A stretch of DNA of 64,000 bases, taken from assembly GCF_003790525.1 (NCBI RefSeq), contig NZ_CP033635.1; one strand, written 5' to 3'. The notes under the pieces are model-generated. The model was not told the DNA's origin and made no database searches. It saw only the letters and a list, made by a program, of their open reading frames with translations. The translations under genes and the position numbers were made by a program. The stretch is from Escherichia coli. GTDB taxonomy: Bacteria; Pseudomonadota; Gammaproteobacteria; Enterobacterales; Enterobacteriaceae. Of the stretch, positions 48,594 to 53,052 are shown one piece after another; the first letter of the stretch is position 1; each line of letters starts with the position of its first letter.

Positions 48594-48724
48594 ATGAATA
48601 CTAACGTTTTTCGACTGCTCCTGCTGGGAAGCCTGTTCAGCCTTAGCGCCTGTGTGCAGCAAAGCGAAGTGCGGCAGATGAAACACAGCGTCAGCACACT
48701 GAACCAGGAGATGACGCAACTCAT
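48594..48724 (+). pseudogene. yajI: yajI lipoprotein gene, 5' fragment interrupted by an IS insertion
   Basis: MNTNVFRLLLLGSLFSLSAC (lipobox) ... EMTQL then the reading frame runs into IS-derived sequence and stops; the remaining ~134 codons resume at ~50473. Confidence 0.75.
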
Positions 48725-48766
48725 TGACATCCTCCACGCCCTGAAGGACGTGGATCCCTGCTACGT

Positions 48767-49975
48767 TCAGGCTGTCGCCTGAATCATTTCGGTGGGTTCC
48801 TGCTTCAACGGGCGGCCTGACTGCACCATCCCTCCACAGGCAAGAACGGCGTGCCCCGCCGCTAAAATGTTACGAGCGCCATTTACATCGGCGTTCGCTG
48901 TATATCCACATACCTGGCATCTGAATTGACTTTGTGACAGGCGATTTTCTTTCGCTGTATGACCACAGCACGTGCAACGCTGGCTTGTGTACGCTGGCGG
49001 AACAGCAAGCACCTGACCGCCACGCCAGAGCTGCTTGTACTCAAGCTGGCGGCGCATTTCATACCAGCCCTGATCCAGTACCGAACGGTTTAAACCTGAT
49101 TTTGCCCGGACATTGCGTCCCGGCTGGCTGACCGTACCCGCTGCTGACTTTGACATGTTGCTGACCTTCAAATCCTCAATGACTATCATTGCGTGGTTTT
49201 TGCTGACGGTCGTTGTGACTTTGTGAAGGTAGTCCCTGCGGATATTTGCGATACGGGAATGCAGTCGCTGTATTTTGCGTTTCTGCTTCTGCCAGTTATT
49301 GCTGAATTCGACCTTGCGGCTTAACTGTCGCTGAAGTCTCGCCAGCGTCTTCTGGTTTTTCTGAAAACTGTTTACAGGCTCAAAGACTGTGCCATCTGAC
49401 AGCGTGGCGAGTTTAGCCACGCCAGCATCCAGCCCGACCATTGATGCTGAAGGGTGAACCGGAGTGGATACTTCACTTTCTGTCTGAATACTGATGTACC
49501 ACTTACCGCAGGACTGGCTGACAGTGACATTTTTCACAACACCCGTGACCTGGCGGCTGTTCCGGTAGCGCATCCAGCCCAGTTTCGGCAGAAAAATACG
49601 GCTGTTTTCCTGATCGAGCTTAACGCCCTGCGGGTAGCGGAATGCATCATTCTGTCCCCGCTTTTTGAATCGGGGAAAAGCAGCCCGCTTCTGGAAGAAG
49701 TTTTTGTAAGCCCGCTCAAGGTCTTTCAGTGACTGTTGCAATGGCTGTGAGGGCGAATCTTTAAGCCATTGCGTTCCAGTGGCGTTTTTCCACTCAACCA
49801 GCCAGGAAGCCATTTTCCCGTAAGGGATGTATTTATTACCGGCCTCATGATTCTCATTCTGAAGCGCCAGAGCACGATTGAAAACGAAACGACATGCGCC
49901 TGCGAAGCGCCTCATTTCATGCTCCTGTTGACCACCGGGTCTTAACTGGAATTTAAATGCCTGTAGTCGTTTCAC
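48767..49975 (-). CDS. tnpB: IS605-family TnpB (OrfB; RuvC-like RNA-guided endonuclease family)
   Basis: 402 aa uninterrupted; N-terminal [13 protein letters not shown]...RFVFN; RuvC-I LDAGV, RuvC-II IEDL, zinc finger CTCCGH...CQVCG, Ruv[12 protein letters not shown]. Confidence 0.85.
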
Positions 49976-49997
49976 AGGTCAAATTATATTTTGGTCT

Positions 49998-50470
49998 GTG
50001 AAAAAAGAAACCGATATCCGGCGTGGAAGGCATTGTGTTTTCCTGATGCATGTTCACCTGGTCTTTGTCCCAAATACCGACGCCAGATTTTTGACCATGA
50101 CGCGACAGAAAAACTACGCACTTACTTTTCAAATGTATGTGCTGATTTTGAAGCTGAACGGGTTGAAATGGATGGCGAACCAGATCACGTCCATTTGTTA
50201 ATTAACTATCCTCCCAAACTGGCGATATCCAGTCTGGTAAACAGCCTCAAAGGTGTATCGGGTAGGTGACTGCGACGAGATCGACCAGATATTGCAGTCA
50301 GGTATTACTACAAAGGCGTTTTGTGGAGTCCTGGCTATTTTGCCAGTAGCTGCGGAGGTGCGCCAATATCCGTCATCCGCCAATACATTGAACAACAGCA
50401 AACACCTGGTCAGGTGGAAAACCGCGCCTTATATCCCCGCCCTGAAGGACGGGGTTTTACGGCGCACCGG
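49998..50470 (+). pseudogene. tnpA: IS200-type Y1 (HUH) transposase TnpA, disrupted by multiple frameshifts
   Basis: TnpA-like segments spread over three frames: HVHLVFVP / PKYRRQIF...HVHLLINYPPKLAISSLVNSLKG / WSPGYFASSCGGAPISVIRQYIEQQ. Confidence 0.7.
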
Positions 50471-50472
50471 AT

Positions 50473-50880
50473 AAAGAAACCGTCAAAATCACTCAGCAAA
50501 ACAGGCTGAATGCAAAATCCAGCAGTGGGGTTTACCTTCTGCCTGGAGCGAAAACACCGGCAAGACTGGAAAGCCAGATCGGTACTTTACGTATGTCGCT
50601 AGTGAATATTACGCATGATACAGATGGCACCACCCTGACGCTACGTATTCAGGGCGAGTCGAATGACCCCTTGCCCGCATTCAGCGGAACTGTTGAATAT
50701 GGGCAAATTCAGGGAACAATAGACAACTTTCAGGAAATCAATTTGCAGAATCAATTGATTAATGCCCCTGCCAGCGTCCTCGTCCCCAGCGATGTTGATA
50801 TTCCGTTACAGTTAAAGGGGATTTCTGTAGAACAGTTAGACTTTGTACGTATCCACGACATTCAACCTGTTATGCAGTAA
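50473..50880 (+). pseudogene. yajI: yajI lipoprotein gene, 3' fragment downstream of the IS insertion
   Basis: In-frame ETVKITQQNRLNAKSS...DIQPVMQ continues the YajI sequence; ORF-track Met at 50593 is internal. Confidence 0.75.
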
Positions 50881-52535: not shown

Positions 52536-52817
52536 TTACCAGTGACGGCGAGGTTCCATCAGCTGATGAAGAATGCGCGCAATGAGAATGTCATCGACTC
52601 TTATAACGTAATAAACAGTGTGAAACCTAAATGCGATCTTCTTTACCTCTGGAATCGCATCATAGTCTTGCCCTATCTCGGGCATTTGAGAGAGTGTATC
52701 CAGAAAAATGCCGAGAGAGTCGGTATAGCGATCCGCCTGCTCCTCACCAAACTTTCCCAGCGTGTAGTCATAGATCCCTCTGAAATCTTCAACAGCTTTT
52801 CCGCTAAGCTTATACAC
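52536..52817 (-). CDS. ParE/RelE-superfamily toxin of a type II toxin-antitoxin pair
   Basis: ORF 52536..52850; likely GTG start whose GTGTATAA overlaps the antitoxin stop, giving ~93 aa; ParE-like core. Confidence 0.7.
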   Translation of the reverse strand: MYKLSGKAVEDFRGIYDYTLGKFGEEQADRYTDSLGIFLDTLSQMPEIGQDYDAIPEVKKIAFRFHTVYYVIRVDDILIARILHQLMEPRRHW

Positions 52818-53052
52818 GATGTTTTTGCTTCCTTTCTGCTGCGATATCACGAAGCGTCATCGAACTTTCACCGCTCTCAAGACCTTCAATAACAGCATTT
52901 CTGACAGCTTCATCCCTGGATTCTTGTTGTTCCAATAGACGAAGCGCTGAACGCATTACTTCACTGGCCGAGCCATAACGACCAGACTGGACCATCCGTG
53001 TAATAAAACTATCTAATTGTTCGCCAACGCTTACTGAGGTAATTTTGCGCAT
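52810..53052 (-). CDS. ParD-family (RHH/CopG-like) antitoxin
   Basis: 80 aa; ...SGRYGSASEVMRSALRLLEQQE...GLESGES... typical of ParD/COG3609 antitoxins; directly upstream of and overlapping the toxin. Confidence 0.75.
   Translation of the reverse strand: MRKITSVSVGEQLDSFITRMVQSGRYGSASEVMRSALRLLEQQESRDEAVRNAVIEGLESGESSMTLRDIAAERKQKHRV

What the first reader, a model, noticed from the sequence alone, without database searches (positions are those of the whole stretch)
48725..50472. IS200/IS605-family element with intact TnpB but decayed TnpA
The 402-aa TnpB has all three RuvC motifs and the zinc finger, while the Y1 transposase TnpA is split over at least three frames. This is the pattern of a non-autonomous element that retains a potentially active RNA-guided TnpB nuclease. 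The genes are divergent, as in IS605 rather than IS608.
Basis: partly seen in the sequence, partly recalled or inferred. Interest (0 to 1): 0.6.

Follow-up and report, generated by a model that had tools for sequence, protein, structure and literature searches.

The report
IS609 copy with dead transposase gene
This is a copy of the known E. coli insertion sequence IS609 sitting inside the yajI gene, with a broken transposase gene but an intact RNA-guided nuclease gene and guide-RNA region; it is an ordinary element that public annotation already describes.

Summary
The element spans window 48724-50470 (1747 bp) and is inserted precisely into the lipoprotein gene yajI. It has no target duplication and lies 3' of TTAT. 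It is IS609: 97.8% identical to the IS609 annotated in E. coli K-12 (insQ/yncK). The window is 100% identical to E. coli SMS-3-5 over the element, where RefSeq already marks tnpA 'frameshifted; internal stop'.

tnpA has one 1-bp deletion (between 50069 and 50070) and one in-frame TTA>TGA (50267-50269). That makes two reading frames, not three.

TnpB (402 aa) keeps D183/E267/D363 and the four zinc-finger cysteines. The last ~170 nt of the element form a guide-RNA scaffold conserved across 26 Enterobacterales relatives, with compensatory changes. Both end hairpins are intact.

So the copy is non-autonomous, could be mobilised in trans, and very probably still encodes a TnpB-guide RNA complex aimed at the empty yajI allele.

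The yajI insertion is present in 340 of 5426 complete E. coli genomes and is old. Intact IS609 tnpA genes exist at other loci in other strains.

Verdict: already known; low interest.

The parts
48724..50470 (-). Whole IS609 copy (1747 bp). The orientation given is that of tnpB and the guide RNA, which is also the strand carrying the end hairpins.
   Evidence: Exact boundaries come from comparison with empty yajI alleles. 97.8% identical to the K-12 feature 'insertion sequence:IS609'.
50471..50474 (-). Target/TAM tetranucleotide TTAT immediately 5' of the left end (reads ATAA on the + strand).
   Evidence: TTAT precedes the left end at five independent E. coli sites: yajI, ydcL/ydcO, yedK, the fklB-ytfB/rplI region and a P1-like plasmid. 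Relatives have TTAT or TTAC. A published IS609-type TnpB test target also used TTAT.
50421..50470 (-). Left end (LE) with subterminal hairpin CCCCGTCC-TTCA-GGGCGGGG (about 50435-50454).
   Evidence: DNA fold -14.1 kcal/mol, z = -2.8. The sequence is shared with copies that have an intact tnpA.
49998..50470 (+). tnpA pseudogene (Y1/HUH transposase). It has a 1-bp deletion between 50069 and 50070 and TTA>TGA at 50267-50269. The ORF has no stop inside the element and would run into yajI, ending at 50509.
   Evidence: RefSeq note in SMS-3-5: 'frameshifted; internal stop'. The repaired K-12 sequence scores 141.5 bits on NF033573 transpos_IS200.
48767..49975 (-). tnpB (insQ-type), 402 aa, intact. 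RuvC residues D183/E267/D363; zinc finger C334/C337/C353/C356.
   Evidence: It differs from the >=90% consensus of 27 relatives at only three non-catalytic positions: K223E, I299V and A335T.
48724..48893 (-). Predicted guide-RNA (omega RNA) scaffold. It overlaps the 3' end of tnpB and the right end. The core helices lie at 48727-48870.
   Evidence: In a 26-sequence alignment, 49 pairs are 95.1% paired, against 40-52% when partners are slid; 10 pairs show compensatory changes; covariation is 0.239 against 0.158 in shuffles (0/500). Sub-threshold Rfam hits to HgcC, RAGATH-18 and sot0042 fall exactly here.
48724..48766 (-). Right end (RE): hairpin TCCACGTCC-TTCA-GGGCGTGGA (48733-48754) followed by GGATGTCAA. 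The element ends in TCAA.
   Evidence: DNA fold. GGAGGATGTCAA is invariant in 26 relatives. There are no differences among four yajI copies in this stretch.
48708..48723 (-). Predicted 16-nt guide, TGAGTTGCGTCATCTC: yajI DNA immediately 3' of the right end.
   Evidence: Position is by analogy with TnpB guide RNAs (10.1101/2023.03.14.532601); sequence. Inference only; no transcript data.
48594..48723 (+). 5' fragment of the interrupted yajI (SadB/YajI lipoprotein).
50471..50880 (+). 3' fragment of the interrupted yajI.

Best explanation
This is a copy of the known insertion sequence IS609 (IS200/IS605 family, divergent tnpA/tnpB as in IS605). It inserted by single-strand 'peel and paste' transposition 3' of a TTAT in yajI, without a target duplication. 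Its Y1 transposase gene has since been inactivated by a nonsense codon and, in this lineage, also a 1-bp deletion, so the copy cannot excise or transpose by itself. Its left and right end hairpins, TnpB ORF and guide-RNA scaffold are intact.

Two consequences follow. First, it could be mobilised by TnpA supplied from an intact IS609. Second, it very probably still makes a TnpB-guide RNA complex whose guide is the yajI sequence next to the right end. That complex would cut only the uninterrupted yajI allele (TTAT + TGAGTTGCGTCATCTC), for example after excision or after incoming DNA restores yajI, which favours retention of the element.

What is shown: identity, boundaries, the lesions, the conserved residues and the conserved RNA structure. 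What is inferred: expression, nuclease activity and the retention effect. The confidence given (0.85) is for identity and non-autonomy; for actual TnpB activity I would say about 0.6.
For: Identity and boundaries:
- The window is 100% identical to E. coli SMS-3-5 over the element.
- The element is 97.8% identical to K-12 IS609.
- The insertion is exact relative to empty alleles.

Family hallmarks:
- TTAT target at five sites and a TCAA end.
- No target duplication.
- Subterminal hairpins at both ends.
- Y1 transposase and TnpB profile matches.

tnpA is dead:
-, plus the RefSeq note.
- The lesions recur in independent assemblies.

TnpB is intact:
- Catalytic triad and zinc finger are present, and there are only three departures from the family consensus.
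- Changes in tnpB are biased toward synonymous: pairwise dN/dS 0.16-0.69; 25 synonymous, 29 non-synonymous and 1 stop across 7 copies, against 78% non-synonymous expected, p = 1e-4.

Guide RNA:
- Conserved structure with compensatory changes.
- Rfam near-hits to three TnpB-associated RNA families (PMC4615843, PMC11061315).

Mechanism:
- Precedent in Meers et al. (10.1101/2023.03.14.532601).

A possible trans source of TnpA:
- Intact IS609 tnpA ORFs occur at other loci in many E. coli.
Against: - There are no transcript or activity data for this copy.
- No sigma-70 consensus promoter was found for tnpB or the guide RNA. The two start codons are only about 8-22 nt apart, so promoters must lie inside the neighbouring gene.
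- The selection signal is modest. It rests on few substitutions, a crude neutral expectation, and possible gene conversion between copies.
- One yajI copy (AR_0006) has a truncated TnpB (385 aa), and another IS609 copy (L005) has lost tnpB but kept tnpA. Retention of tnpB is therefore not universal.
- I could not locate the two other IS609 matches in SMS-3-5, so it is unknown whether TnpA is available in trans in this genome.
- H. pylori IS608 TnpB was inactive in one interference assay, so an intact sequence does not guarantee activity.
Confidence: 0.85

Rival explanations
1. Inert fossil. The whole element is a decaying relic, and TnpB and the guide RNA are not expressed or not active. The intact tnpB ORF persists only because too little time has passed.
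For: tnpA is already dead. One orthologous yajI copy has a truncated TnpB, and another IS609 copy has an 11-bp deletion in tnpB. No promoter consensus was found. Within-species dN/dS of 0.2-0.6 is only moderately below 1.
Against: Over the same period each of four yajI copies acquired one or two disabling lesions in about 480 bp of tnpA, while only one of four acquired a lesion in 1209 bp of tnpB. tnpB changes show a synonymous excess. The 43-nt right end is identical in all four yajI copies. The window TnpB matches the family consensus at all but three positions.
Confidence: 0.25
2. Domesticated TnpB. After loss of tnpA the nuclease and guide RNA were co-opted for a host function (for example regulation or defence), which would explain their retention at a fixed chromosomal site in a whole clade.
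For: The insertion is as old as the divergence of its flanks: tnpB differs by 1.2-1.9% and the left flank by 0.6-1.5%. It is present in 340 genomes. tnpB shows signs of constraint.
Against: The RuvC triad is intact, the guide is simply the flanking yajI DNA, and the ends are still those of a mobile IS609. Known exapted TnpB relatives have lost nuclease residues and have retargeted guides (my own knowledge, not tested here). The element disrupts yajI and sits beside no obvious partner gene. Retention is equally well explained by selfish homing.
Confidence: 0.07
3. tnpA is not really dead. The TGA is read through or recoded and the frameshift is compensated, so that the element remains autonomous.
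For: The same TGA occurs in the K-12 ydcL copy and in three yajI copies. That could hint at a tolerated or regulated stop.
Against: The codon is Leu (TTA) in all intact homologues. The window copy also carries a 1-bp deletion 200 nt upstream, which removes the HUH motif and the catalytic Tyr from the first frame. Other copies at the same loci have TTA (NR329, L011). I did not search for a slippery site or a stimulatory structure at the deletion.
Confidence: 0.02

Closest known systems
IS609 of E. coli K-12 (insQ/ydcM + yncK pseudogene, between ydcL and ydcO)
   Same: Same element: 1748 versus 1747 bp, 97.8% identity, identical ends, TTAT target, 402-aa TnpB, and a tnpA pseudogene with the same TTA>TGA.
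   Different: It sits at a different chromosomal site (yajI), and the ydcL/ydcO site is empty in SMS-3-5. The window copy has an extra 1-bp deletion in tnpA, and the two copies differ at 37 other positions.
IS605 / IS608 of Helicobacter pylori (family prototypes)
   Same: Y1 transposase plus TnpB, subterminal hairpins, no inverted repeats or target duplication, insertion 3' of a tetranucleotide, and a right end finishing in TCAA as in IS608. The genes are divergent as in IS605.
   Different: The target is TTAT rather than TTAC (IS608). The proteins are only distantly related. The IS609 tnpA ORF has no stop inside the element. The prototype features are quoted from my own knowledge and; they were not re-tested here.
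ISDra2 TnpB-omega RNA (Deinococcus radiodurans; PDB 8EXA/8H1J)
   Same: Full-length alignment (E = 1e-53) with the catalytic D/E/D and zinc finger conserved. The guide RNA derives from the tnpB 3' end plus the right end.
   Different: There is a 15-residue insertion after the catalytic Glu. The TAM is TTAT rather than TTGAT (own knowledge). Activity of the E. coli protein was not demonstrated here.
G. stearothermophilus ISGst TnpB (Meers et al.)
   Same: The proposed role is the same: cutting the TAM-flanked donor joint so that the element is restored by recombination. ISGst2 TnpB2 also uses TTTAT.
   Different: In the window copy tnpA is dead, so excision, which is the event that creates the target, would need TnpA in trans.

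Membership tests
IS200/IS605 family insertion sequence | Encodes a Y1 (HUH) tyrosine transposase, TnpA | tested here: met
   The repaired K-12 tnpA sequence scores 141.5 bits on NF033573 transpos_IS200, cut-off 55. Homologues carry PF01797. In the window the gene is a pseudogene.
IS200/IS605 family insertion sequence | No terminal inverted repeats and no target-site duplication; subterminal hairpins on one strand at both ends | tested here: met
   The insertion is exact relative to the empty site, with nothing duplicated. Hairpins lie 16 nt inside the left end and 9 nt inside the right end on the tnpB-sense strand.
IS200/IS605 family insertion sequence | Inserts 3' of a specific tetra- or pentanucleotide | tested here: met
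   TTAT precedes the left end at five independent E. coli sites. The tails of read-through TnpA ORFs at four further sites all start with Ile followed by a codon beginning with A, which is consistent with ATAA.
IS609 (the named element) | Near-identity to the reference element over its full length (ISfinder convention of more than about 95% nucleotide identity; own knowledge) | tested here: met
   1710 of 1748 aligned positions are identical to the K-12 feature annotated 'insertion sequence:IS609'. RefSeq names the ST2747 yajI copy 'IS609 family transposase'. The ISfinder reference itself was not available.
TnpB RNA-guided endonuclease | RuvC-like D-E-D catalytic residues and a CxxC...CxxC zinc ribbon | tested here: met
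   D183/E267/D363 align with ISDra2 D191/E278/D361. C334/C337/C353/C356 are present. NF040570 scores 386.5 bits, cut-off 100.
TnpB RNA-guided endonuclease | A structured guide RNA encoded at the 3' end of tnpB and the right end | tested here: met
   A conserved structure with 10 covarying pairs is seen in 26 relatives. Sub-threshold Rfam hits to HgcC, RAGATH-18 and sot0042 fall here. This is computational only; the right-end hairpin could equally be conserved for TnpA binding.
TnpB RNA-guided endonuclease | TAM-dependent and guide-dependent DNA cleavage | not testable with these tools
   This needs an interference or cleavage assay. An 'IS609' TnpB relative was purified and given a TTAT-flanked target in PMC12781874 (Table S2), but I found no result for it.

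The most novel reading that the evidence does not exclude
At the yajI site, tnpB and its guide RNA have been kept by selection for as long as the carrying lineages have diverged, while tnpA was knocked out independently several times (TGA, a 1-bp deletion, and a different stop in NR329). This would mean that a TnpB-guide RNA pair can maintain itself, or serve the host, at a fixed chromosomal locus without its transposase. It would be a natural intermediate between a selfish homing nuclease and a domesticated RNA-guided protein.
Probability: 0.2. Interest if true: 0.45.

Novelty: already known. Interest (0 to 1): 0.15.

Why it matters
It matters little as a discovery. IS609 is a named element annotated in E. 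coli K-12, and RefSeq already labels this very copy as TnpB plus a frameshifted tnpA.

It has three modest uses:
- The empty and occupied alleles give clean definitions of the IS609 ends, its TTAT target/TAM and the predicted guide.
- The 340-genome yajI::IS609 clade is a natural experiment for asking whether TnpB and its guide RNA persist under selection after the transposase is lost.
- E. coli's own TnpB could interfere with, or be exploited in, TnpB-based tools used in E. coli hosts.

Tried and rejected
1. Sequencing error as the cause of the tnpA lesions. Rejected: the sequence is identical in 23 independent complete genomes, and the lesions are shared by diverged strains.

2. Rejected: there are two frames plus an in-frame stop.

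3. The shared TGA as proof that the yajI copy descends from a K-12-type ydcL copy. Not supported: the window copy is no closer to the K-12 copy (38 differences) than to others (26-37), and both loci also have TTA alleles. Homoplasy or short-patch gene conversion cannot be told apart.

4. Looking for an intact tnpA in the same genome. I examined the ydcL/ydcO, yedK/yedL, rplI/ytfB and yoaG/yeaQ sites of SMS-3-5, and none carries IS609. The tool lists only one place per record, so the two other matches in that genome stayed unlocated.

5. Rfam. No family reaches its gathering score, only sub-threshold hits.

6. Promoter scan. Nothing above the shuffled expectation.

7. Literature search for experiments on IS609/InsQ TnpB. 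I found only a mention of a purified 'IS609' TnpB among screening candidates, with no result that I could find.

8. ISfinder was not available.

Full report
**What is there**

The region lies in an E. coli chromosome segment with the gene order ribD-nrdR-yajI-tsx. Over the element the window is 100% identical to E. coli SMS-3-5 and to 22 other complete genomes.

Uninterrupted yajI alleles from strain JNE25-005 and from K-12 fix the insertion at window 48724-50470, 1747 bp. The empty site reads ...GCAACTCA|ATAAAGAAAC.... The occupied site reads ...GCAACTCA[TTGACATCC...CACCGG]ATAAAGAAAC.... Nothing is duplicated.

**Name**

E. coli K-12 MG1655 carries a feature annotated 'insertion sequence:IS609' (1503161-1504908, 1748 bp). 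It contains insQ ('putative RNA-guided DNA endonuclease InsQ') and the pseudogene yncK. The window element aligns to it end to end with 38 differences, 97.8% identity.

RefSeq annotates the SMS-3-5 copy as 'RNA-guided endonuclease InsQ/TnpB family protein' plus 'IS200/IS605 family transposase; frameshifted; internal stop', flanked by two yajI fragments. The finding is therefore already in public annotation.

**Anatomy in tnpB orientation (window minus strand)**

- The flank ...GGTTTCTTTAT is followed by the left end CCGGTGCGCCGTAAAA-CCCCGTCC-TTCA-GGGCGGGG....
- The right end is ...TCCACGTCC-TTCA-GGGCGTGGA-GGATGTCAA, followed by the flank TGAGTTGCGTCATCTC....
- Both ends fold as subterminal DNA hairpins.
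- The K-12 copy (ydcL/ydcO), a copy next to yedK (L007), a copy between ytfB and rplI (L005) and a plasmid copy (L079) are all preceded by TTAT and all end in TCAA.
- The ydcL/ydcO site of SMS-3-5 is empty and reads exactly GGCGCTTTTTAT|TATCGGTTTC.
- Relatives in other Enterobacterales are preceded by TTAT or TTAC.
- A published screen gave an 'IS609' TnpB a TTAT-flanked target (PMC12781874, Table S2).

Together these are the family hallmarks: no inverted repeats, no target duplication, hairpin ends, and insertion 3' of a tetranucleotide.

**tnpA**

tnpA is on the plus strand and divergent from tnpB. The start codons are 8-22 nt apart, depending on which tnpA start is used.

Translation shows VKKETDIRRGRHCVFLMHVHLVFV in one frame. 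The rest (KYRRQIF...HVHLLINYPP...LKGVSGR*LRRD...WSPGYFASSCGGAPISVIRQYIEQQQTPG...) is in a second frame, and that frame contains a TGA.

Against K-12, the frame change is a 1-bp deletion between 50069 and 50070. The TGA at 50267-50269 replaces a Leu codon (TTA) that is present in every intact homologue. So there is one frameshift and one nonsense codon, in two frames rather than three. The ATG that gene callers use five codons upstream in other copies is ATT here.

These lesions are real. The sequence recurs unchanged in 23 assemblies. At the same yajI site, AR_0006 has both lesions, ST2747 has only the TGA, and NR329 has TTA but another internal stop.

**Intact tnpA elsewhere**

They occur at the ydcL locus (tail ...TAHRIKSAI), the ytfB/rplI locus and the yedK locus. 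Close relatives with a 138-aa TnpA in the same divergent arrangement occur in Citrobacter, Serratia, Morganella, Xenorhabdus, Yersinia, Klebsiella, Photorhabdus and others. The family is alive; this copy is not autonomous.

I could not establish whether SMS-3-5 itself has an intact tnpA. Its chromosome has two more matches, but the four known sites I inspected are empty.

**TnpB**

- The 402-aa ORF scores 386.5 bits on NCBIfam guided_TnpB.
- It has the Pfam HTH_OrfB_IS605, OrfB_IS605 and TNB domains.
- It aligns over its full length with ISDra2 TnpB (E = 1e-53). D183, E267 and D363 fall opposite D191, E278 and D361.
- The four zinc-ribbon cysteines are present.
- Against 27 relatives it departs from a >=90% consensus at only three non-catalytic positions.

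**Guide RNA**

The last 200 nt of 26 elements align well, and all end in GGAGGATGTCAA. I tested a structure of seven helices and 49 pairs:

- 95.1% of cells are paired, against 40-52% when partners are slid by 1-3 columns.
- 10 pairs show changes on both sides.
- The covariation score is 0.239, against 0.158 in shuffles (0 of 500 reach it).

The last helix is the right-end hairpin, which TnpA also needs as DNA. The upstream helices, including the CCUGUGGAG...GAAGCAGGAA stem, are best explained by an RNA.

Rfam gives only sub-threshold hits, but all three fall on this stretch and strand, and all three are to families tied to TnpB. HgcC and sot0042 are sense-overlapping transcripts at tnpB 3' ends (PMC4615843). 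RAGATH-18 is the source of guide RNAs for IS607 TnpBs (PMC11061315).

By analogy the guide is the 16 nt beyond the right end, TGAGTTGCGTCATCTC. With TTAT, that sequence is exactly the uninterrupted yajI allele.

**How it most likely works**

The family mechanism is as follows (10.1101/2023.03.14.532601). TnpA excises the top strand and reseals the donor. TnpB-guide RNA then cuts the resealed donor joint, so that recombination restores the element.

Here TnpA is dead, so excision needs TnpA in trans. TnpB and its guide RNA, if expressed, would act only on an empty yajI allele. Expression and activity are inferred, not shown. No consensus promoter was found.

**Age and selection**

The yajI junction is present in 340 of 5426 complete E. 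coli genomes. IS609 DNA of some kind is present in 5015 of them.

Four yajI copies differ from one another by 1.2-1.9% in tnpB. That is similar to the left flank (0.6-1.5%), so the insertion is old and has diverged along with its surroundings.

Pairwise dN/dS in tnpB is 0.16-0.69. Among the four yajI copies there are 13 synonymous changes, 19 non-synonymous changes and 1 stop, against 78% non-synonymous expected (p = 0.02). With seven copies the test gives p = 1e-4.

This is a rough test. It suggests some constraint on tnpB after tnpA was lost, but AR_0006 has a truncated TnpB, and the L005 copy kept tnpA and lost tnpB. I rate the reading 'TnpB maintained without its transposase' as possible but unproven.

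**Verdict**

The observation and the interpretation are right apart from the frame count. The element is the known IS609, and this copy is already annotated as such. It is ordinary, and interest is low.

Noticed in passing
window 50400-50509; loci L005, L007, L010, L011: The IS609 tnpA has no stop codon inside the element. Relatives end at ...QQQTPG/S (138 aa), but in IS609 the ORF continues (QVENRALYPRPEGRGFTAHR) through the left-end hairpin into flanking DNA. This gives locus-specific tails and protein lengths of 163-254 aa.
   Followed up: partly
window 50267-50269; L004 (K-12), L012, L013 versus L014, L011: The same TTA>TGA nonsense mutation is present in the K-12 ydcL copy and in three yajI copies. 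Other copies at both loci have TTA, and the TGA-bearing copies are not otherwise each other's closest relatives. The cause is homoplasy or short-patch gene conversion.
   Followed up: partly
L079 1501-2836 (E. coli plasmid pE148-2, P1-like); many Klebsiella plasmids: There are natural tnpA-less derivatives of about 1.33 kb. They consist of the first 62 nt of the left end, a short linker, an intact tnpB and the right end, inserted after TTAT between phage lysozyme and head-processing genes. About 75%-coverage matches of this form (and, in Salmonella, matches covering only tnpB and the right end) are common on Klebsiella, Escherichia and Salmonella plasmids.
   Followed up: partly
L005 1753-3489 (E. 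coli GCA_020085235.1, between ytfB and rplI): This copy shows the opposite decay pattern. tnpA is intact (204 aa), but tnpB carries an 11-bp deletion that stops translation at codon 36.
   Followed up: yes
L073 23118-25801 (SMS-3-5 chromosome 1745117-1747800): In SMS-3-5 the K-12 IS609 site between ydcL and ydcO is empty, and ydcO is instead interrupted by an IS4 element.
   Followed up: yes
window about 52536-53052 (minus strand): A ParD/ParE-type toxin-antitoxin pair sits between yajD and secF in SMS-3-5. It is not annotated at that position in strains ST2747 and NR329, where secF follows yajD directly.
   Followed up: no
loci L015, L022, L026, L051 versus the other relatives: Relatives in Yersinia ruckeri, an Escherichia sp. 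and a MAG are preceded by TTAC instead of TTAT, and they also differ near the start of the left end. In principle this allows a test of covariation between the TAM and the left-end guide.
   Followed up: no
SMS-3-5 chromosome about 1.23-2.10 Mb (L072, L073, L076-L078): Gene order in SMS-3-5 is inverted relative to K-12 across a terminus-spanning segment, from at least K-12 coordinates of about 1.11 to 2.01 Mb. I saw this while navigating the genome.
   Followed up: no
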